From IMG/VR virus record IMGVR_UViG_2690316345_000004: DNA of 6,867 nucleotides; one strand, given 5' to 3'. Positions 644 to 6,745 of this stretch are shown here, piece by piece. Every line of letters starts with the position of its first letter. Position 1 is the stretch's first letter. This stretch comes from a virus (lineage: Duplodnaviria > Heunggongvirae > Uroviricota > Caudoviricetes). The notes below the pieces were generated by a model. The model was not told where the DNA came from. It saw only the letters and a list, made by a program, of their open reading frames with translations, and searched no databases. Made by a program: the position numbers and the translations under genes.

Positions 644-1072
644 ATGCTAAAAACTAGGCTTATCACTGATTACATCAATTCATTAGTAGGTCAGGAGTTC
701 GTTCAAGGCGAGAATGATTGCAATTTAATTGCATGTAAGATCATCGATATTCTCGCTGGCACTGACCTATATAATTCTCTTTATAAAAAATATTCAACGA
801 AAGAAGAAGGCTTGAAAGTCTGTAAAGAACTTAGTGGATATACCAATATCCTCCAGCCTATCAAAGAACATTTTAAATTAGTTACTGATGATTTACAGGA
901 CGGCGACCTATTGATCCGCGATCACAAATTAGGAAACCGTAAGTATTACTCCGTGACTCCTTATTATTCCGGCTATGGACTCGTTACCGAAGATGGAATC
1001 TGGACGACCAAGCCGATTTACGAAATTGATTATAACGATGCTTATCGCTTTGGGGGTGATTTATGGGCGTAG
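644..1072 (+). CDS. putative tail assembly protein with NlpC/P60-like Cys...His arrangement (lambda gpK-like C-terminal domain)
   Basis: ATG 644 is preceded by GGAGGT (631-636) at 7-nt spacing. The ORF-track start at TTG 401 would overlap the previous gene by about 200 nt and is rejected. The product has a Cys in a GENDCNLIAC context and a downstream GDLLIRDH segment, reminiscent of NlpC/P60 catalytic Cys/His motifs. Stop TAG 1070-1072 overlaps the next start (ATGGGCGTAG). Confidence 0.6.
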   Translation: MLKTRLITDYINSLVGQEFVQGENDCNLIACKIIDILAGTDLYNSLYKKYSTKEEGLKVCKELSGYTNILQPIKEHFKLVTDDLQDGDLLIRDHKLGNRKYYSVTPYYSGYGLVTEDGIWTTKPIYEIDYNDAYRFGGDLWA

Positions 1073-4000
1073 AAGTATTGGTCGGCGCGGTTATTGCTGG
1101 TGCGTCGGCTGGGATGGCTGCTGCTTCCGTGGCGGCAATTTCAACATTAGCGGCTGTTGCTATCGGTATTGGTGCTGGTGCATTGTCTTTGATTGCTTCC
1201 ACTGTAGGCGCACCGAAAACACCGAAGGTACAAAGCCCAGATAACGCGGTGACATTAGGAACATCAAACGATCCGAAAGCGGTGATACCAGTTATTTTCG
1301 GTGTTACTCGCACTGGTACAAACTGTGTTTACAAAGCAATTTCTAAGAAAGAAAACAATAAGTTAGTGCAAGTATTTTCTGTAGCCGAGGGTGAAATCGA
1401 CCATTACAAAGCACTCTTTATTGATAATAAAAATGTTCTTGTTGGTAAGAACATGACGATCCGTGATGGTATTCTCGATAAGGGCAACATTAAAGAAGAA
1501 TACCGTAAAGTGTTAGAAGTCGAGTTCCGCACGGGTAAGAATCCTAACACCGCATTGTCACTGGCAAAAACTCATTTAGGCTCAGACTGGACCGATGCTT
1601 ACAAGGGTAACGGCATTGCAACCATGTGTATTGTGTTACGTCGTGATGACAAATCTCTTGCTGCTGGTGTTGATATTCTCCAGCCAAATAGCCAGGTAGC
1701 AGTAGACGTTTGCGGCCTTAAAATCCGTAACCTTGAAACCAATGCTATTGAGGCTAGCACCAACGGCGTGGACCAGATTTTCCACTACCTAACAAATGAA
1801 AAATATGGTCTTAGTGTACCAATTGAAAACATCAACGTTGATTCATTCCTGAAAGTACGTTCTCAAGTTCGCCAGATGAATTTGCACTCTAACGGTGCAT
1901 GTGATCCGAACGCCAGCTTTAAAGAGAACTTGACCGGATTGATGCAGACTTTCGGCGGGGTGATGTTTGAATCCTTTGGACGTATTACTCTGAAACTGGA
2001 TGCTCCTGATATTGTTAAGCATACCTTCAATGAAGACAATATCATGATGGGTAAAGTTAACCTGAAAACAGGTGGCACTAACGGTTATTTCAATACCATT
2101 AACGCAATCTATCAGGAACCATCAATCGACTATTCAGAGCAAATGCTACGTTATCCGGCTGATGCTGAAAATGATGCTACTATCCGTCAAGATGGGCGCA
2201 TTATTGCTAAAGACGTAGAATATCGCTTTGTTAAAGATGAAAACCAGATTGACAAATTAGCGAGCATTGAACGAAATAAATCTCGTATTACTCAGGTTAT
2301 CAACTTCACTACTACCGATGCATTCAGCGCGGAAGTCTGGGACGTTATCAGCGTTACCCACGATGAATTGAAACTGAATAATTCACTTTGGCGTATTATC
2401 TCTATTGAGCGTAGCATTGATTCTGGTATTGCTGGTATTTTGTCTATCACCGCCACAGAATATAATTCTCAGATTTACACAGATCTGGATTATGCGGCTA
2501 AACCGGACAATAGACCAAGTGGTTTACCGGATTCAATGACAGTACAGAAGCCTACTAATTTCAGAATTAAGGCAACTGGCGAGACGATTTACGGTAAAAA
2601 TGTTACTTTGACATGGGATGCACCGGAAGATTTTAACCGCTACGGCTTCCAGATTGATTACCGTGTAAGCGGATCACCTAACTGGATTAAGCTCGGTCAG
2701 ACTTCACAGCAAATTTTCAATGTCAATGCACTGGCTAAAGATCGCTCCTACGATTACCGAGTTTGTGCTTTCGGTATCATCGCGCGATCCGATTGGGTAG
2801 AACTGATTAACCAGAATCCGACTGTTACCTATGAATTGCCGACTCCGGTTATTCGAATCAAAAATCAGGGTAGCACGCCAGGAACTTTCGAAGGTAATGA
2901 TCTGATTATCGAATGGGATAACCAGCAAGGCTTAGATGTTGAGATCAACGGTGAAACTAACAAGTTTAGTGACCTGTTTGAAGCATACATTATCAAGGTG
3001 ACTAACAAGGCTGGTAAGTCTATTCAGTACCGTACCCGCGATCCTGAATCATGGACTTATACGCTTGATATGAACCAGTTTAACGGCCTTTCGCGTCAAC
3101 TGACGGTAGAAGTATCAGCTAAGGGATATAACAACTCAGAGAGCGCCCCAGCGCGTTTAGTGGCTATCAACCCACAACATAAGCCAATGAAAGGTTTTAG
3201 TGCGCGTGGTGGCTTTAATACTGCGTTTGTTAGCTGGGCGGATGACGTAGAACATGACTATGCAGGGTCAATCATCCAGTATGCAACCGACAACACTTTC
3301 TCAGATGCAAGGGCAGTAAGCACGAATAGTGTTAGCCATACTTCCTTTGATATTGCTGACGGTGATTATTATATCCGTGGTGCTCACTACGATATTTTCG
3401 GTATGGATGATGCTGTTTGGTCTGAACCGTATTTCATGCAAATGAAATCTACCATTAGCTGGGACGATCAGGACAAAGAAGCACTGGAAGACCTGATTGG
3501 TTTACAAGATCGCTTAGATGAAACCATCGCTGATGCTATTGCTCAAGCTGGCGCTAATGCCGATGCTAAAATTGATGCAATGCATAAGCAAATCACTACC
3601 GAGACGGGTAAAACTGTTCAAGCCTCAGCCGATACCTTAAAGAGTCTGATTGCTTCTGGTGATAAGGCAAGTTCAACTAAGATTGATCAGGTTAAAGCTG
3701 AACTGAAAGGCGATATCACCAAAGAAGTTAGCGCATCTGCTACTACCCTGAAACAAGCAATTGCAACCAGTGAGGCAGCAAGCGCAAGTAAGATTGACCA
3801 AGTTCGGGTAGAAATGGATGGCAAGATTGCTGGTGTGAATCAGGAAGCAGATGTAAAAATCGATGCTTTGAAAGGAACCATTAACAGCAAATACAATCTG
3901 GCAGTTAATGCAGATGGTCGCGTGGCTGGCATTCACATGAGCGCAACCAACGATCCGGCACAACCGACTAAAATCATCTTTACGGCTGATAAAATTGCTG

Positions 4001-4815
4001 TAGCTCCGCAGAACGGGACCGATGTTTGCCCGTTTGGTATCGAAGGTAACAAGGTTTATCTCGATAATGCGATGATTCGTAATGCTGCAATTGGCACAGC
4101 CCAGATTAATGATGCGGCAATTACTACCGCTAAGATCGGAAATGCTGCAATTAACAGCGCGAAGATTCAGGACGGGGCGATCACCAATGCGAAGATCGTA
4201 AACGGCGCAATTGATAATGCTAAAATTGGTAACTATATCCAGTCTTCAAACTGGAACGGATCTACCGGATGGCATATCAACAAGAACGGGTCCGCTACGT
4301 TCATGAACGCTACCGTTAAAGGTAATATCACGGCTGATTCTGGTACTCTGAACAACGTCACGATTAACTCTAGCTGTGTTATTAAGGGTATGCTTGAAGC
4401 TACTCAGGTTAAGGGTGATTTCGTTAAGGTGATTGGTAAGAAATTCCCTCATCGTCAACAAAACTGGCCTGATGGCACTGTTACGGTAAGGGTGGAAGAT
4501 GATCATAAGTTTGATCGCCAAATTGTGATTCCAGCTATTCACCATAACGGGTCTGTTCGTCGTGGCGAAAGTAGTGATCATTGGGACACTTGCCGATTAA
4601 TCGTTAAGAAAAATGGCTCTGTTCTATATGATCGCACGGCTACTTCTGGCAGCATGTACACAGGCGTTATTGACATGCCAGCGGGTAAAGGTGCTGTAAC
4701 GTTAACATTCCAAGTTATTTGTGATGGTGTTAACAACTATAACCCAAGTGCATATATCAGCGATCTAACAGTAATGGTAACTAAAAAAGCCACTACTGGT
4801 ATTACTGTTTCTTAA
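1063..4815 (+). CDS. central tail fiber / host specificity protein, lambda gpJ-like, with a gpI-like N-terminal module
   Basis: 1250-codon ORF with ATG 1063 preceded by GGGGGTGA (1052-1059). The C-terminal ~160 aa (EDDHKFDRQIVIP, IDMPAGKGAVTLTF, DLTVMVTKKATTGITVS) closely resemble the recalled C-terminal receptor-binding region of lambda J (TDDHPFDRQIVV, VDMPAGRGNVILTF, DVQVMVIKKQALGISVV). The middle holds FN3-like beta-sandwich segments and an Ala/Lys/Asp-rich coiled-coil stretch. The first ~95 aa are a Gly/Ala-rich hydrophobic segment followed by APKTPKV...VIPVIFGVTRTG, resembling the C-terminal half of lambda gpI. Confidence 0.92.
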   Translation: MGVEVLVGAVIAGASAGMAAASVAAISTLAAVAIGIGAGALSLIASTVGAPKTPKVQSPDNAVTLGTSNDPKAVIPVIFGVTRTGTNCVYKAISKKENNKLVQVFSVAEGEIDHYKALFIDNKNVLVGKNMTIRDGILDKGNIKEEYRKVLEVEFRTGKNPNTALSLAKTHLGSDWTDAYKGNGIATMCIVLRRDDKSLAAGVDILQPNSQVAVDVCGLKIRNLETNAIEASTNGVDQIFHYLTNEKYGLSVPIENINVDSFLKVRSQVRQMNLHSNGACDPNASFKENLTGLMQTFGGVMFESFGRITLKLDAPDIVKHTFNEDNIMMGKVNLKTGGTNGYFNTINAIYQEPSIDYSEQMLRYPADAENDATIRQDGRIIAKDVEYRFVKDENQIDKLASIERNKSRITQVINFTTTDAFSAEVWDVISVTHDELKLNNSLWRIISIERSIDSGIAGILSITATEYNSQIYTDLDYAAKPDNRPSGLPDSMTVQKPTNFRIKATGETIYGKNVTLTWDAPEDFNRYGFQIDYRVSGSPNWIKLGQTSQQIFNVNALAKDRSYDYRVCAFGIIARSDWVELINQNPTVTYELPTPVIRIKNQGSTPGTFEGNDLIIEWDNQQGLDVEINGETNKFSDLFEAYIIKVTNKAGKSIQYRTRDPESWTYTLDMNQFNGLSRQLTVEVSAKGYNNSESAPARLVAINPQHKPMKGFSARGGFNTAFVSWADDVEHDYAGSIIQYATDNTFSDARAVSTNSVSHTSFDIADGDYYIRGAHYDIFGMDDAVWSEPYFMQMKSTISWDDQDKEALEDLIGLQDRLDETIADAIAQAGANADAKIDAMHKQITTETGKTVQASADTLKSLIASGDKASSTKIDQVKAELKGDITKEVSASATTLKQAIATSEAASASKIDQVRVEMDGKIAGVNQEADVKIDALKGTINSKYNLAVNADGRVAGIHMSATNDPAQPTKIIFTADKIAVAPQNGTDVCPFGIEGNKVYLDNAMIRNAAIGTAQINDAAITTAKIGNAAINSAKIQDGAITNAKIVNGAIDNAKIGNYIQSSNWNGSTGWHINKNGSATFMNATVKGNITADSGTLNNVTINSSCVIKGMLEATQVKGDFVKVIGKKFPHRQQNWPDGTVTVRVEDDHKFDRQIVIPAIHHNGSVRRGESSDHWDTCRLIVKKNGSVLYDRTATSGSMYTGVIDMPAGKGAVTLTFQVICDGVNNYNPSAYISDLTVMVTKKATTGITVS
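4078..4227 (+). repeat. five tandem 30-nt (10-codon) repeats inside the J-like CDS
   Basis: Directly visible: RNAAIGTAQI / NDAAITTAKI / GNAAINSAKI / QDGAITNAKI / VNGAIDNAKI, each encoded by a 30-nt unit (e.g. aatgctgcaatt...aagat[ct]) in head-to-tail register. Confidence 0.85.
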
Positions 4816-4833
4816 AATTTAATTTTAATAATT

Positions 4834-4875
4834 AATCCCGCTTAATTCTTTTGGGTTAGGCGGGATTATTTTTAT
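4834..4875 (+). terminator. putative rho-independent terminator after the tail-fiber gene
   Basis: Inverted repeat aatcccgctt (4834-4843) / aggcgggatt (4858-4867), a 10-bp stem with one G-U pair and a 14-nt loop, followed by ATTTTTAT (4868-4875). It lies 19 nt after the J stop. Confidence 0.55.
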
Positions 4876-4920
4876 CTAAATAATTCTGCCATTAAACTAT
4901 ATAAAAATATCGGGGGCGTA

Positions 4921-5199
4921 ATGACTGAAATTATATATGGCGGTATCGGTGTTATCGCCTTAATTTGTGGTGGATTATGGAGGCTTCACCGAAATCAATT
5001 AGCCACAGAAAATAGATTGTCGAAATTAGAATCCAGCGACGCATTGTTAAACCAGAAGTTTGAGACGATGCAGAATAACCATACTCAGATTGCTGAACGT
5101 GTTTACCAAATGGAACAAACACTACACGGTATAGAGAAGAAAGTGGTTGCGATGGACGCCAAATTTGACCAAGTTCTCGACATACTCAAACAAAAATAA
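4921..5199 (+). CDS. hypothetical membrane-anchored coiled-coil protein (92 aa)
   Basis: ATG 4921 preceded by GGGGG (4912-4916). One N-terminal hydrophobic segment (IIYGGIGVIALICGGLW), a basic flank (RLHRNQ), then a heptad-like helical region. Ends with three in-frame stops TAATAATAA (5197-5205). Confidence 0.7.
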   Translation: MTEIIYGGIGVIALICGGLWRLHRNQLATENRLSKLESSDALLNQKFETMQNNHTQIAERVYQMEQTLHGIEKKVVAMDAKFDQVLDILKQK

Positions 5200-5217: not shown

Positions 5218-5388
5218 ATGAAGAATAAACTTAAGAAATATTTTGGTTATCTCTTGATTGTCGCCCTCACTTATAACGTAGCAATTAGACCTCTGCTTAC
5301 GTCCTTTGGGCTTGAACTCCCGGCTATGACCGTGGATGAACAATTGCTCAGGACACTGGCGGGGGTCTTTTCGTTATTAGGGGGCTAA
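5218..5388 (+). CDS. hypothetical small hydrophobic protein (56 aa), absent from the supplied ORF track
   Basis: ATG 5218 preceded by AAAGGGG (5205-5211). Translation: MKNKLKKYFGYLLIVALTYNVAIRPLLTSFGLELPAMTVDEQLLRTLAGVFSLLGG. Lys-rich N-terminus followed by a hydrophobic stretch. Stop TAA 5386-5388 lies 1 nt before the next ATG (TAACATG), indicating translational coupling; it fills the gap between two well-supported genes. Confidence 0.5.
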   Translation: MKNKLKKYFGYLLIVALTYNVAIRPLLTSFGLELPAMTVDEQLLRTLAGVFSLLGG

Positions 5389-5389
5389 C

Positions 5390-5995
5390 ATGGCTAATCC
5401 AATAATCACATCCAATATTGATAAAGTAAAAAAAGATATCAAGAGTTGGAAACAGAAAGCTAGTAATAGCTTTCATAGGGATTTGGGTTTAGCGGTCATA
5501 GATGAGCGGGTAAAGTTGCAGAAGAAAGTCAATTCAAGGATAGATCGACCGACCAAGTTCACACAGAAAGCGGTCAATTCATACAACCGGATACGCTCAA
5601 GCGGTAAAACGTCTTACCATAGTGTTTTCATCATGAAGAATCAGGAAAAATACTTAAAATATTACTTTGAAGGTGGTAATAATATCGAGAAATTTGTTCC
5701 TGTAACTGATGACCGAACTAACCAGTTTGGTAACATTCCACAACTCAGAAACGGTAAGAAAATAGGGAAGTATGTAACCACAAAATCTAAGACTGGTAAA
5801 ATACTGCTTCTCGATCCATCCGTTAAAGCCGACATGAACAACAAGAAAAAGCTAGGGAAGCGACTTGTTGCAGTGTTGAAGAAAACAGACCGTAGTAACA
5901 TCATGGGTAGTTGGAAAGATAATGAGAAAACGATGAAGAAGAATATCCAGAAGAAGATGAAAAAGCACTTCATGGGTAAAATCAACTTCGTTTAA
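5390..5995 (+). CDS. hypothetical lysine-rich basic protein (201 aa)
   Basis: ATG 5390 preceded by AGGGGG (5378-5383). Very Lys-rich, especially at the C-terminus (KKNIQKKMKKHFMGKINFV), with no obvious hydrophobic segment. The antisense ORF 5662-5985 is a low-complexity mirror of the Lys codons and is rejected. Confidence 0.75.
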   Translation: MANPIITSNIDKVKKDIKSWKQKASNSFHRDLGLAVIDERVKLQKKVNSRIDRPTKFTQKAVNSYNRIRSSGKTSYHSVFIMKNQEKYLKYYFEGGNNIEKFVPVTDDRTNQFGNIPQLRNGKKIGKYVTTKSKTGKILLLDPSVKADMNNKKKLGKRLVAVLKKTDRSNIMGSWKDNEKTMKKNIQKKMKKHFMGKINFV

Positions 5996-6003
5996 TCCAT
6001 AAA

Positions 6004-6029
6004 TACCCTCATAGAATCTTATGGGGGTA
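6004..6029 (+). promoter_or_regulatory. hairpin sequestering the Shine-Dalgarno of the 6034 gene
   Basis: taccctcata (6004-6013) pairs with tatgggggta (6020-6029): a 10-bp stem with one G-U pair and a 6-nt loop. The GGGGG at 6023-6027 is the RBS for ATG 6034. No T-tract follows, so it is not a terminator. Confidence 0.35.
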
Positions 6030-6033
6030 TAAC

Positions 6034-6381
6034 ATGGCTAAAAATATTTTCACTGAATTTCCTACTTATCCGGTCGACCAGCTTTCCGGTATTTTTATCA
6101 ATGGCATTAGCCCTGAATCAATGACACTTGATTACGAGGCGAAGAGAGTAAAGCATAAACAATTCAAGCAAATGATCCGCGATGATGGTAACGGGTTAGT
6201 GTTTTGTGTTGCGACACTCGCTAAACGTCCTAAATACCGCTTCCGTGTAGGGCAGGAGATTGATGTAGTTAACCCTTACAACTTCAATTGTATTGGTGAT
6301 GCACGAGCGGTATGCATAGGCACAGCACCTTATTACATTAAGGGACTCAGATTTATTGGGTATCTTATGCAATACATCTAA
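6034..6381 (+). CDS. hypothetical protein (115 aa)
   Basis: ATG 6034 with GGGGG 7 nt upstream. Ends TAA 6379-6381, immediately followed by the RBS of the next gene. No family recognised from sequence. Confidence 0.7.
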   Translation: MAKNIFTEFPTYPVDQLSGIFINGISPESMTLDYEAKRVKHKQFKQMIRDDGNGLVFCVATLAKRPKYRFRVGQEIDVVNPYNFNCIGDARAVCIGTAPYYIKGLRFIGYLMQYI

Positions 6382-6391
6382 AGGGGGTAAT

Positions 6392-6745
6392 ATGTTAAGC
6401 AAGCATTTTTCTCGCAAGGAATTTAAATGTAAATGCGGAAAATGTGATTATGATACTATCGACGCTGAACTGCTGGTAATTCTTGAGGATGTACGCGAAC
6501 ACTTCGGGAAACCAGTAATTATTAACAGCGGGAACCGTTGTCCGACTCATAATAAGAATGTAGGCGGTGCAACCAATAGCTACCATGTTCGAGGCCGTGC
6601 GGTTGATATTGTAGTGAAAGGCGTCTCGCCTGATATTGTCCATGCTTATCTTGATGGGAAATATCCTACCAAGTATGGCTTAGGAAAGTATAAAACCTTC
6701 ACGCACATTGATAGTCGTTCAACGAAATCACGCTGGCATGGATAA
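6392..6745 (+). CDS. peptidase M15 family zinc metallopeptidase (Peptidase_M15_3 / YcbK-like fold), putative endolysin
   Basis: ATG 6392 preceded by AGGGGG (6382-6387); the TTG 6356 start in the ORF track is rejected. Motifs INSGNRCPTHNKNVGGATNSYHVRGRAVD and FTHID match the His-x6-Asp ... His zinc-binding signature of M15 peptidases. No signal peptide or SAR-like N-terminus. Confidence 0.85.
   Translation: MLSKHFSRKEFKCKCGKCDYDTIDAELLVILEDVREHFGKPVIINSGNRCPTHNKNVGGATNSYHVRGRAVDIVVKGVSPDIVHAYLDGKYPTKYGLGKYKTFTHIDSRSTKSRWHG

What the first reader, a model, noticed from the sequence alone, without database searches (positions are those of the whole stretch)
4921..5199. 92-aa bitopic membrane protein with a coiled-coil domain encoded right after the receptor-binding fiber
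It has one N-terminal hydrophobic helix (IIYGGIGVIALICGGLW) followed by a basic flank (RLHRNQ) and about 70 residues of heptad-like helix. By the positive-inside rule the coiled coil is probably cytoplasmic (N-out), which argues against an i-spanin. There is no lipobox, so it is not a Cor/Llp-type lipoprotein. A holin-like or superinfection-exclusion role at the inner membrane is possible. The gene has its own upstream terminator and an A/T-rich leader with TATATAAAAAT at 4898-4908, suggesting partly independent expression.
Basis: partly seen in the sequence, partly recalled or inferred. Interest (0 to 1): 0.55.

Follow-up and report, generated by a model that had tools for sequence, protein, structure and literature searches.

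The report
Membrane-tethered coiled-coil protein of a prophage lysis block
This is a real, strongly conserved 92-residue inner-membrane protein that opens the gene block ending in the cell-wall-degrading enzyme of an E. coli prophage; it most likely helps to breach the inner membrane at lysis, like the recently described phage Mu "releasin", and does not block incoming phages.

Summary
ORF 4921-5199 (+) encodes 92 aa with one N-terminal TM helix (residues 4-20), a basic juxtamembrane flank and an unbroken 8-heptad helix (AF2: one helix, residues 3-91). It is under strong purifying selection (dN/dS about 0.08).

The window is the tail-to-lysis junction of a roughly 40-kb, serine-recombinase E. 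coli prophage. The gene is the first of a five-gene block:
- TM-coiled-coil protein
- 56-aa membrane protein (phrog_2024)
- about 200-aa basic protein
- about 115-aa protein
- signal-less M15 endolysin

The block recurs in Salmonella, Providencia, Edwardsiella, Proteus, Klebsiella-type prophages and phage DCP80. Gene order is shuffled and three endolysin types are used. A metagenomic homologue sits in a compact holin-like/endolysin cassette with no tail-tip gene nearby.

All nine family members compared have no K/R before the TM helix and 2-5 K/R after it. That predicts N-out/C-in, the pattern of Mu gp25 and the reverse of a genuine i-spanin. No o-spanin partner gene exists.

The closest known proteins are Mu releasin gp25 (DUF2730) and LambdaSo Lcc6. 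Similarity to DUF2730 is specific but sub-threshold, so I do not claim membership.

Best reading: an inner-membrane lysis accessory factor or holin subunit. Superinfection exclusion and a spanin role are not supported. I rate it a new variant of a known kind, of moderate interest.

The parts
4921..5199 (+). gp92: 92-aa bitopic membrane protein (TM plus coiled coil), the finding itself
   Evidence: ORF; homologues; dN/dS 0.08; AF2 single helix residues 3-91
4930..4980 (+). Codons 4-20: transmembrane helix IIYGGIGVIALICGGLW. G17 and W20 are invariant across the family
   Evidence: KD17 = 2.02; invariant columns
4981..4998 (+). Codons 21-26: basic juxtamembrane motif R-L-H-R-N-Q, (K/R)LHRNQ across the family. 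Predicted to face the cytoplasm
   Evidence: The same GG-x-W-basic arrangement is seen in Mu gp25
4996..5196 (+). Codons 26-92: continuous heptad coiled coil ending in the conserved motif MDAKFDQVLDILK
   Evidence: 15 of 20 a/d positions hydrophobic in one register; AF2 helix
4833..4873 (+). Intrinsic-terminator hairpin plus T run between the tail-tip gene J and gp92
   Evidence: The position is conserved while the stem sequences differ in E. coli, Providencia, Edwardsiella and Proteus, and L030 carries a compensatory pair change
4912..4916 (+). Shine-Dalgarno GGGGG for gp92
   Evidence: Sequence
5218..5388 (+). gp56: small membrane protein and the likely holin or holin partner. phrog_2024 family, with sub-threshold GTA_holin_3TM-like hits in longer relatives
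5390..5995 (+). gp201: very basic conserved protein of the block. Its start lies 1 nt after the gp56 stop. Function unknown
6034..6381 (+). gp115: conserved protein of the block, function unknown
6392..6745 (+). Endolysin (Peptidase_M15_3, 117 aa from the ATG at 6392) with no signal or SAR segment
   Evidence: Pfam E = 3.7e-28, phrog_894 E = 2e-45; RefSeq start
1063..4815 (+). J-type central tail fibre / tail-tip protein with a lambda-J-like C-terminal receptor-binding domain. This is upstream context, not part of the block
   Evidence: Pfam Ig_GpJ_C 3.3e-35, Phage_Tail_Tip 1.9e-22

Best explanation
gp92 is a type-I (N-out, C-in) inner-membrane protein. About 3 residues face the periplasm, one TM helix crosses the membrane, and a rod of about 70 residues lies in the cytoplasm and oligomerises as a coiled coil.

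It is the first gene of the prophage's late lysis block. It most likely acts at the inner-membrane step of lysis together with the small membrane protein gp56, either as an accessory or regulator of hole formation or as a holin subunit. The signal-less M15 endolysin could then reach the murein.

Functionally it resembles the membrane-tethered cytoplasmic lysis factors Mu gp25 ('releasin', DUF2730) and LambdaSo Lcc6.

- Shown: the gene is real and constrained, its architecture, its synteny with endolysins, and the absence of a spanin partner.
- Inferred: its topology, its role in lysis, and partnership with gp56.
For: 1. **Architecture and constraint.**
2. **Conserved block.** The five genes (TM-CC, phrog_2024 protein, about 190-aa protein, about 110-aa protein, endolysin) recur in:
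   - E. coli
   - Providencia
   - Edwardsiella and Proteus
   - L012, with an M15_4 endolysin and two extra genes between J and the TM-CC gene
   - L014 and L044, where the TM-CC gene lies directly next to a T4-type lysozyme and the phrog_2024 gene has moved to the end of the block
   - phage DCP80
3. **Homology of the distant members.** hhalign of the gp92 family against P0065/P0083/L044-90 gives 98.3% probability, E = 1.7e-14. Against P0075 it gives 96.7%, E = 3.3e-10.
4. **An independent cassette.** In the metagenomic contig L072 the homologue overlaps a 2-TM holin-like ORF. A 1-TM ORF and an M15_3 endolysin follow, and no tail-tip gene is nearby.
5. **Charge pattern.** 0 K/R before and 2-5 K/R after the TM helix in all 9 members, as in Mu gp25. 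The genuine i-spanin of L007 is reversed.
6. **Similarity to DUF2730.** hhalign of the family against a 7-sequence DUF2730 profile scores 25.9 over 73 columns (E = 3.4e-4). None of 200 column-shuffled controls reaches it (mean 11.8, sd 2.4, max 20.5). Four i-spanins, YhcB and FtsB score 12-17. Both share the motif GG-x-W-basic...TE-x-R...LE.
7. **Precedents.** Mu gp25 is a 99-aa N-out/C-in protein with 4 periplasmic residues and a 73-aa cytoplasmic domain, and it is required for lysis. DUF2730 proteins lie within 5 genes of endolysins, both with and without SAR domains (PMC9239132). Lcc6 has a TM helix plus a 43-aa cytoplasmic tail and is required at the holin step (bioRxiv 10.1101/2024.01.23.576932).
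8. **The endolysin needs a hole.** It has no export signal (sequence).
Against: - No experiment bears on this family. The topology rests on the positive-inside rule alone, and one member (L044-90) has a net acidic C flank.
- gp92 itself has no Pfam DUF2730 hit, even at E <= 5. The sub-threshold DUF2730 hits of two relatives (E = 0.004 and 0.033) sit among many equally good generic coiled-coil hits.
- HHalign probability is only 20-40%. A reversed DUF2730 profile scores 19.9 and PspB 19.4.
- DUF2730 proteins carry a central conserved 'LP..D.H.L' loop, whereas gp92 is one uninterrupted helix.
- Most of the synteny evidence comes from a single prophage lineage with the same tail module, so it is partly inherited gene order. 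L072 is the main independent case.
- Two unknown proteins (gp201, gp115) sit inside the block, so it is not proven to be purely a lysis cassette.
- The holin identity of gp56 is itself only presumptive. PF11351 hits are E = 0.002-0.05, below threshold, and there is no similarity to the bona fide PF11351 holin of phage HS6.
Confidence: 0.5

Rival explanations
1. gp92 is itself the holin, a single-TMD class with a charged cytoplasmic tail. gp56 would then be an antiholin or accessory protein.
For: - It is small, has one TMD and a hydrophilic charged C-terminal domain.
- In L014 and L044 the homologue lies directly next to the soluble lysozyme, the canonical holin position.
- The relative P0083 has a weak Holin_LLH (PF09682) hit at E = 0.019, and P0065 a weak phrog_1296 holin hit at E = 0.041.
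- No other recognisable holin sits next to the endolysin.
Against: - There is no significant similarity to any characterised holin family.
- A second, more holin-like small membrane protein (phrog_2024) is always present in the block.
- In L072 a 2-TM holin-like ORF follows the homologue.
- The prophage also carries a 3-TM 92-aa ORF after the small terminase gene.
- A single TMD attached to a long rigid coiled coil is unlike the experimentally studied holins (my own knowledge).
Confidence: 0.15
2. gp92 is an i-spanin-like protein (N-in, C-out) whose periplasmic coiled coil takes part in outer-membrane disruption, with an unrecognised partner.
For: - The architecture (N-terminal TM plus coiled coil) is that of i-spanins.
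- Weak hits to Rz-like spanin PHROGs, all to phrog_739: gp92 E = 0.036, P0083 E = 3.8e-6, the DCP80 153-aa protein E = 1e-3. P0083 also hits phrog_89 at 3.6e-5.
- Most prophages of this lineage have no identifiable spanin.
Against: - No embedded, overlapping or adjacent lipobox ORF exists.
- The charge pattern is the reverse of the genuine i-spanin in L007.
- L007 carries a complete i/o-spanin pair in addition to the gp92 homologue.
- Direct comparison with that i-spanin finds nothing: hhalign E = 0.14 over 10 columns, and BLASTP gives no alignment.
- hhalign against Rz, T7 gp18.5 and Mu gp23 stays at background, scores 14-17.
- A single helix of about 10 nm is short for spanning the periplasm alone (inference).
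Confidence: 0.1
3. gp92 is a lysogenic-conversion or superinfection-exclusion membrane protein placed after the receptor-binding protein. This would be comparable in position to cor or llp and in membrane location to HK97 gp15.
For: - It lies directly after J in the E. coli, Salmonella and Providencia prophages.
- A conserved terminator separates it from the tail operon.
- It is an inner-membrane protein.
- There are weak hits to PHROGs labelled 'moron' (phrog_1625, E = 0.009).
Against: - No sigma-70 promoter was detected, and no terminator follows the gene.
- It is packed with four downstream genes ending in the endolysin.
- Adjacency to J is lost in L012, L014, L044 and L072, while linkage to an endolysin is kept.
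- It has no PADLOC hit and no lipobox.
Confidence: 0.1
4. gp92 has some other late function unrelated to lysis. One example would be a membrane anchor for tail-fibre or virion assembly acting with gp201 and gp115.
For: - The gene always sits at the boundary between tail genes and lysis genes.
- gp201-type proteins weakly hit a PHROG labelled 'minor tail protein' (phrog_1924, E about 1e-3).
- In L072 the gene follows a tail-assembly-chaperone-like gene.
Against: - In a Ralstonia phage, phrog_1924 sits between the primase and the large terminase, so the 'tail' label is doubtful.
- I know of no precedent for an inner-membrane coiled-coil protein in siphophage tail assembly (my own knowledge).
Confidence: 0.1

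Closest known systems
Phage Mu gp25 'releasin' (DUF2730 / PF10805; Chamblee et al. 2022, mBio, PMC9239132)
   Same: - Size: 99 aa against 92 aa.
- An acidic N terminus with no K/R and only 3-4 periplasmic residues.
- One N-terminal TMD ending in GG-x-W, followed by a basic flank.
- A helical cytoplasmic domain of about 70 aa ending in an L-(D/E)-L-L motif.
- A gene within 5 genes of the endolysin.
- DUF2730 proteins are also paired with endolysins that lack SAR domains.
- Profile-profile score above all shuffled controls and above the other TM-coiled-coil proteins tested.
   Different: - gp92 does not reach the Pfam threshold; it has no hit at all.
- HHalign probability is only 20-40%.
- gp92 is one uninterrupted coiled-coil helix, whereas DUF2730 has a conserved central LP..D.H.L loop.
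- The gene lies upstream, not downstream, of the endolysin.
- The host element is a serine-recombinase, lambda-type-terminase siphophage prophage, not a transposable phage.
- The endolysin here is a cytoplasmic M15 peptidase, so the SAR-release mechanism shown for gp25 cannot apply as such.
Shewanella prophage LambdaSo Lcc6 (Thonebohn et al. 2024, bioRxiv 10.1101/2024.01.23.576932)
   Same: - A small protein with an N-terminal TM helix (aa 5-22) and a cytoplasmic tail.
- Not toxic on its own, but strictly required for lysis at the holin / inner-membrane step.
- Found in a non-Mu, lambda-like prophage.
   Different: - Lcc6 is 65 aa with a 43-aa tail.
- Its gene lies far from the lysis genes, near int/xis.
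- It works with a pinholin and a SAR endolysin.
- I had no Lcc6 sequence, so similarity was not tested.
Two-component spanin i-subunit (lambda Rz type; PHROG 739 and others)
   Same: N-terminal TM helix plus coiled coil, located in the lysis region, with weak PHROG hits.
   Different: Opposite predicted topology, no o-spanin partner gene, no direct similarity to the genuine i-spanin of a related prophage, and shorter.
Bacillus PBSX XhlA (PF10779), a membrane-anchored coiled-coil protein acting with the holin XhlB (my own knowledge of Krogh et al. 1998)
   Same: A protein of about 90 aa that combines a cytoplasmic coiled coil with a single membrane anchor, encoded in a lysis cassette next to a holin. 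Two family members give weak XhlA hits, best E = 4.9e-4.
   Different: XhlA has its TM helix at the C terminus, comes from a Gram-positive host, and the hits are sub-threshold and confined to the coiled coil.

Membership tests
DUF2730 / Mu gp25 releasin | N-terminal TMD with predicted N-out, C-in topology (positive-inside rule) | tested here: met
   0 K/R in the N flank and 4 K/R in the 15 residues after the TM helix. The same holds in all 9 family members and in Mu gp25. This is a prediction only.
DUF2730 / Mu gp25 releasin | Protein of about 100 aa whose remainder is a cytoplasmic helical domain of about 70 aa | tested here: met
   92 aa; helix over residues 3-91 in AF2; heptads.
DUF2730 / Mu gp25 releasin | Match to Pfam PF10805 at or above the gathering score (24.9 bits) | tested here: not met
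   gp92 has no hit at E <= 5. The relatives P0083 (E = 0.0041) and L044-90 (E = 0.033) are below threshold.
DUF2730 / Mu gp25 releasin | Profile-profile similarity to DUF2730 members | tested here: inconclusive
   hhalign score 25.9, probability 38%, E = 3.4e-4 over 73 columns. 0 of 200 shuffled controls reach it, but a reversed profile scores 19.9 and PspB 19.4.
DUF2730 / Mu gp25 releasin | Gene within 5 genes of the endolysin gene | tested here: met
   Four genes upstream in the window and adjacent in L014 and L044. In Mu-like phages the gene is downstream of the endolysin.
DUF2730 / Mu gp25 releasin | Carried by transposable (Mu-like) phages | tested here: not met
   The prophage has a large serine recombinase, a gpA-type terminase and an insertion in hicB. 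No transposase, Mor or GemA is annotated.
DUF2730 / Mu gp25 releasin | Required for release of a SAR endolysin from the membrane | not testable with these tools
   The endolysin here (6392-6745) has no N-terminal hydrophobic segment, so this precise activity is unlikely to apply.
Two-component spanin, i-spanin subunit | Type II topology (N-in, periplasmic C-terminal coiled coil) | tested here: not met
   The charge distribution predicts the opposite, and the genuine i-spanin of L007 shows the expected reverse pattern. This is a prediction only.
Two-component spanin, i-spanin subunit | Cognate o-spanin lipoprotein gene embedded in, overlapping or adjacent to the i-spanin gene | tested here: not met
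   No + strand ORF of 20 aa or more with a lipobox lies in or after gp92. There is none in the roughly 40-kb prophage except an unrelated 190-aa lipoprotein at the far end, and none in the flanks of L005, L009, L012 or L014.
Two-component spanin, i-spanin subunit | Sequence similarity to known i-spanins | tested here: inconclusive
   Weak hits to phrog_739 (E = 0.036 for gp92, 3.8e-6 for P0083). Nothing is found against the phrog_739 i-spanin of L007 itself, and hhalign against Rz, T7 gp18.5 and Mu gp23 is at background.
Holin | Small membrane protein with at least one TMD and a charged hydrophilic C terminus, encoded next to the endolysin | tested here: met
   with adjacency in L014 and L044. 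These criteria are permissive and do not prove holin function.
Holin | Homology to an experimentally characterised holin family | tested here: not met
   No Pfam, NCBIfam or PHROG holin family at a significant E-value. The best is Holin_LLH at E = 0.019, for a relative.
Holin | Timed lethal permeabilisation of the inner membrane that releases the endolysin | not testable with these tools
   This needs expression experiments.
Cor/Llp-type exclusion lipoprotein or stand-alone moron | Lipobox and signal peptide (Cor/Llp), or own promoter plus terminator flanking a single gene (moron) | tested here: not met
   No lipobox. No promoter was found and no terminator lies downstream; the gene is followed after 18 nt by gp56.

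The most novel reading that the evidence does not exclude
gp92 founds an unannotated family of membrane-tethered cytoplasmic coiled-coil lysis factors. The family is distantly related to, or convergent with, Mu releasin. It operates in non-transposable siphophage prophages with signal-less endolysins.

Together with gp56, gp201 and gp115 it would form a five-component lysis module without spanins. If so, a 'fourth component' at the inner-membrane step is general among phages of Gram-negative bacteria and not a peculiarity of Mu.
Probability: 0.3. Interest if true: 0.65.

Novelty: new variant of a known kind. Interest (0 to 1): 0.45.

Why it matters
Lysis by phages of Gram-negative bacteria is taught as three parts: holin, endolysin and spanin. 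Mu gp25 (2022) and LambdaSo Lcc6 (2024) showed that small N-out/C-in membrane proteins with cytoplasmic tails can be additional, essential players at the inner membrane.

The Mu paper found DUF2730 only in transposable phages among active phages. It left open what these proteins do when the endolysin is cytoplasmic.

The gp92 family offers such a case. It has a releasin-like architecture and a sub-threshold but specific similarity to DUF2730. It sits in widespread, inducible-looking E. coli and Salmonella prophages that are not transposable, carry a signal-less M15 endolysin and mostly have no recognisable spanin. That makes the question testable in E. coli.

Every database annotates the family as 'hypothetical', and in one deposited phage genome (DCP80) the gene is not annotated at all.

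Tried and rejected
- **Isolated phages.** Megablast and tblastn of the region and of gp92 against 50,697 phage records found nothing. tblastn with the distant relative P0083 gave only chance hits.
- **Family libraries.** Pfam, NCBIfam and PADLOC scans of gp92 returned only generic coiled-coil noise or nothing.
- **Size of the family.** The profile search of 1.84 billion representatives gave only 5 clusters at E <= 1e-10. Beyond these, most hits are coiled-coil or 11-mer-repeat proteins that I treated as compositional. P0095 (L074) lay on a short contig with no informative context.
- **Degenerate-pattern search.** The search for related loci with the diverse alignment failed for lack of a conserved stretch. 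With the close alignment it returned only near-identical E. coli prophages.
- **Split-holin idea, rejected.** I considered that gp92 plus gp56 is a split GTA_holin_3TM holin. L014 and L044 carry both a full-length phrog_2024 protein and a TM-CC gene. hhalign of the phrog_2024 family against the bona fide PF11351 holin of phage HS6 is negative, E = 0.16.
- **gp201 as a tail protein, not supported.** The only strong phrog_1924 member examined lies between the primase and the large terminase of a Ralstonia phage.
- **Repeated 11-mer, left at chance level.** TATCTAAATA(A/C) after the terminator also occurs about 40 nt upstream of the large terminase gene. About 2-3 such matches per 40 kb are expected.
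- **RNA families.** Rfam found nothing in the window.
- **Fold search not run.** A single helix gives meaningless matches.
Full report
**1. The observation**

The ORF is exactly as described: 4921-5199 on the + strand, ATG start, 92 aa. A GGGGG ribosome-binding site lies 4 nt upstream of the start.

- The most hydrophobic 17-residue window is residues 4-20 (Kyte-Doolittle mean 2.02).
- The N flank (MTE) has no K/R. The next 15 residues have four.
- From about L33 to L89 the a/d heptad positions run without a break. 15 of 20 a/d positions from residue 26 are hydrophobic in one register, against 4-9 of 19 in the others.
- AlphaFold2 with a 27-sequence alignment gives a single helix over residues 3-91, mean pLDDT 73.
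- There is no lipobox. C16 follows L-I and is not conserved.
- The hairpin at 4833-4868 followed by TTTTT, and TATATAAAAAT at 4898-4908, are both present. The consensus scan finds no sigma-70 promoter between the hairpin and the start codon.

The gene is a real protein-coding gene under constraint. There are 50 protein clusters in E. coli, Salmonella and Providencia, with 82% mean column identity. Median dN/dS is 0.08 over 26 distinct alleles, and both the TM part (0.08) and the coiled coil (0.11) are constrained.

**2. Where the window comes from**

The window is not in the phage collection. It is 97% identical to a prophage in E. coli RMDEC332 and occurs in 55 of 5,426 complete E. coli genomes.

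The element is about 40 kb and is inserted in hicB. It has a large serine recombinase, a gpA-type large terminase, portal, capsid, a siphophage tail module (tape measure, DUF2163, DUF6950) and a J-type tail tip with a lambda-J-like receptor-binding domain.

The late operon ends in this order:
- J
- terminator hairpin
- gp92
- gp56 (5218-5388)
- gp201 (5390-5995)
- gp115 (6034-6381)
- an M15_3 endolysin (6392-6745) with no signal or SAR segment

**3. The gene travels with the endolysin block, not with the fibre**

The same five genes follow J in other E. coli prophages, Providencia, Edwardsiella and Proteus.

The profile search of 1.84 billion representatives found few relatives. Three distant ones are confirmed as homologues by hhalign:
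- P0065, P0083 and the L044 90-aa protein: 98.3% probability, E = 1.7e-14.
- P0075: 96.7%, E = 3.3e-10, 84 gapless columns.

Their contexts are informative.

| Locus | Context |
|---|---|
| L012 | Two extra genes separate J from the TM-coiled-coil gene. The small TM gene, the ~186-aa and ~105-aa genes and an M15_4 endolysin still follow. |
| L014, and the widespread Klebsiella/Serratia-type prophages (L044) | The TM-coiled-coil gene lies directly beside a soluble T4-type lysozyme. The phrog_2024 gene has moved to the end of the block. |
| Phage DCP80 | The block includes an unannotated 153-aa TM-coiled-coil ORF. |
| L072 (high-GC metagenomic contig) | The homologue overlaps a 2-TM holin-like ORF. 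A 1-TM ORF and an M15_3 endolysin follow, with no tail-tip gene nearby. |

Linkage to an endolysin therefore survives rearrangement and replacement of the endolysin type (three Pfam families). Adjacency to J does not survive.

Most of these cases belong to one prophage lineage, so part of the signal is inherited gene order. L072 is the best independent case.

**4. The terminator**

A hairpin followed by a T run sits between J and the gene in E. coli, Providencia, Edwardsiella and Proteus. The stem sequences are entirely different, and one E. coli variant (L030) carries a compensatory G-C to A-T change.

It is therefore a maintained structure. It most simply reads as an attenuator at the boundary between highly expressed tail genes and the lysis block. 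It does not show a separate transcription unit.

**5. Topology and the spanin question**

All nine family members compared have no K/R before the TM helix; seven of them have an acidic residue in that flank. All have 2-5 K/R in the 15 residues after the helix. Mu gp25 has the same pattern.

The Edwardsiella relative L007 carries a canonical spanin pair on the opposite strand. It consists of a 108-aa i-spanin (phrog_739, E = 3.3e-14) and an 83-aa o-spanin with an ISGC lipobox (PF26831). That i-spanin has the reverse charge pattern.

- Against it, the gp92 family shows no similarity.
- Against Rz, T7 gp18.5 and Mu gp23, hhalign stays at background.
- No lipobox ORF is embedded in, overlaps or adjoins gp92.
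- There is none in the whole prophage apart from an unrelated 190-aa lipoprotein at the far end, and none in the flanks of four relatives.

I read the weak hits to 'Rz-like spanin' PHROGs as shared architecture.

**6. The closest known proteins**

A relative's weak DUF2730 hit led to phage Mu gp25, the 'releasin'. It is 99 aa, N-out/C-in, with four periplasmic residues and a 73-aa cytoplasmic domain, and it is required for lysis.

The whole of gp25 defines DUF2730. Among active phages DUF2730 was found only in transposable phages. It always lies within five genes downstream of the endolysin, and it is paired with nine endolysin families, of which only two have SAR domains (PMC9239132).

gp92 and gp25 align end to end with few gaps. 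They share G-G-x-W at the end of the TM helix, the basic flank, a TE-x-R...LE motif and an L-(D/E)-L-L ending.

Quantitatively:
- hhalign of a 16-sequence gp92-family profile against a 7-sequence DUF2730 profile scores 25.9 over 73 columns (E = 3.4e-4, probability 38%).
- None of 200 controls reached it. In these, the TM columns and the tail columns of the DUF2730 alignment were shuffled separately (mean 11.8, sd 2.4, max 20.5).
- Four i-spanins, YhcB and FtsB scored 12-17. PspB scored 19.4 and the reversed profile 19.9.

gp92 itself has no Pfam DUF2730 hit at all. DUF2730 also has a conserved central LP..D.H.L loop that the uninterrupted gp92 helix lacks. I therefore do not file gp92 under DUF2730. 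It works like one on the evidence available, and it may be a very distant relative.

A second precedent is Lcc6 of the Shewanella prophage LambdaSo. It is 65 aa, with a TM helix at residues 5-22 and a 43-aa cytoplasmic tail. It is harmless alone but strictly required for lysis at the holin step, in a non-Mu phage.

**7. The partner**

gp56 belongs to phrog_2024 (E = 4e-11 for the L014 97-aa form; E = 4e-4 for DCP80). The 96-98-aa forms are very common in Enterobacterales prophages and are all 'hypothetical'.

They give sub-threshold hits to the GTA_holin_3TM family (E = 0.0021 and 0.052). The Mu-like phage HS6 pairs a bona fide PF11351 holin with a DUF2730 protein. However, the phrog_2024 profile does not match that HS6 holin. 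gp56 as the holin is therefore plausible but unproven.

The gp56 stop and the gp201 start are 1 nt apart. gp201 and gp115 have no informative homologues.

**8. Mechanism proposed**

gp92 inserts N-out, so that its 70-residue rod lies in the cytoplasm and oligomerises. With gp56 it controls or completes the inner-membrane lesion that lets the signal-less M15 peptidase reach the wall.

The precise SAR-release activity shown for Mu gp25 cannot apply, because the endolysin is soluble. The Lcc6-type action at the holin step is the nearer model.

- Shown: architecture, constraint, synteny, and the lack of a spanin partner.
- Inferred: topology, involvement in lysis, and partnership with gp56.
- Confidence is about 0.5 for this reading, plus about 0.15 that gp92 is the holin itself.
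- The spanin-like, exclusion and other readings each get about 0.1.

**9. Verdict**

The exclusion option and the idea of independent expression are not supported.

The finding is a new variant of a recently recognised kind: membrane-tethered cytoplasmic lysis factors. It occurs in non-transposable prophages with cytoplasmic endolysins. It is moderately interesting and directly testable in E. coli.

Noticed in passing
window 5218-6745; also L005, L007, L009, L012, L014, L044, L042: A five-gene block is conserved across Enterobacterales prophages: TM-coiled-coil protein, phrog_2024 small membrane protein, a very basic protein of about 190 aa, a protein of about 110 aa, and an endolysin. The positions of the endolysin and the phrog_2024 gene are swapped in some lineages, and three endolysin families are used. 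The two middle proteins have no known function. The gp56 stop and the gp201 start are 1 nt apart (5388/5390).
   Followed up: partly
prophage of NZ_CM177021.1 (L006 17400-29501 plus L001 1-29400): No o-spanin-like lipobox ORF and no u-spanin is found anywhere in the roughly 40-kb prophage. Among the relatives checked, only the Edwardsiella one (L007 9763-10337, minus strand) has a T4-type i/o-spanin pair. This lineage may lyse without canonical spanins. The strongly cationic gp201 is an untested candidate for an outer-membrane role.
   Followed up: partly
window 4833-4873 and the equivalent intergenic regions of L001-L009 and L016-L040: The intrinsic terminator between J and gp92 is kept at the same place in four genera with unrelated stem sequences, and one E. 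coli variant (L030) has a compensatory base-pair change. The motif TATCTAAATAA follows it. The motif recurs with one mismatch about 40 nt upstream of the large terminase gene, but that is within chance expectation.
   Followed up: partly
L042 5850-6311 and 6789-6962 (Escherichia phage DCP80, PQ671644.1): The deposited record leaves two ORFs unannotated: the 153-aa TM-coiled-coil ORF and the 57-aa phrog_2024 ORF. The record is labelled Straboviridae (141 kb, with motA) yet carries this siphophage-type J and lysis block, so it may be a chimeric assembly.
   Followed up: no
L014 6804-7235; L044 4670-5119; L042 6337-6804; L002 1234-2004: Homing-endonuclease-type genes are inserted within or beside the block or the tail genes in several relatives: SegE-like GIY-YIG, endonuclease VII and a NUMOD3 protein. 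In L044 the lysozyme gene next to the endonuclease is inverted relative to the block.
   Followed up: no
gp92 residues 78-90 (window 5152-5190); proteins P0056, P0060, P0062, P0067, P0080: The C-terminal motif (M/I/L)DAK(F/L)DQ(V/I)LD(L/I)LK of gp92 also ends many unrelated small bacterial proteins built from 11-residue 'xDxRFxx(I/V/M)' repeats. This explains most of the weak hits in the profile search. The meaning of the shared ending is unknown.
   Followed up: no
L006 19551-19829 (prophage, after the small terminase gene): A 92-aa ORF with three predicted TM helices (MTIFLTYLVIITALSM...) has no PHROG match. It is another possible holin or membrane moron in the same prophage.
   Followed up: no
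L043 5968-6576 (Ralstonia phage YO375_1): The only strong member of phrog_1924 examined (labelled 'minor tail protein', E = 9.6e-48) lies between a primase/helicase gene and the large terminase gene, where a small terminase or a DNA-binding protein would be expected. The PHROG label may be wrong. gp201 of the window hits this PHROG only weakly.
   Followed up: partly
window 6356-6745: The mechanical ORF for the endolysin starts at TTG 6356 (129 aa). RefSeq annotations of the relatives and the homologue alignment favour the ATG at 6392 (117 aa). On that reading the gp115 stop (6381) and the endolysin start do not overlap.
   Followed up: partly
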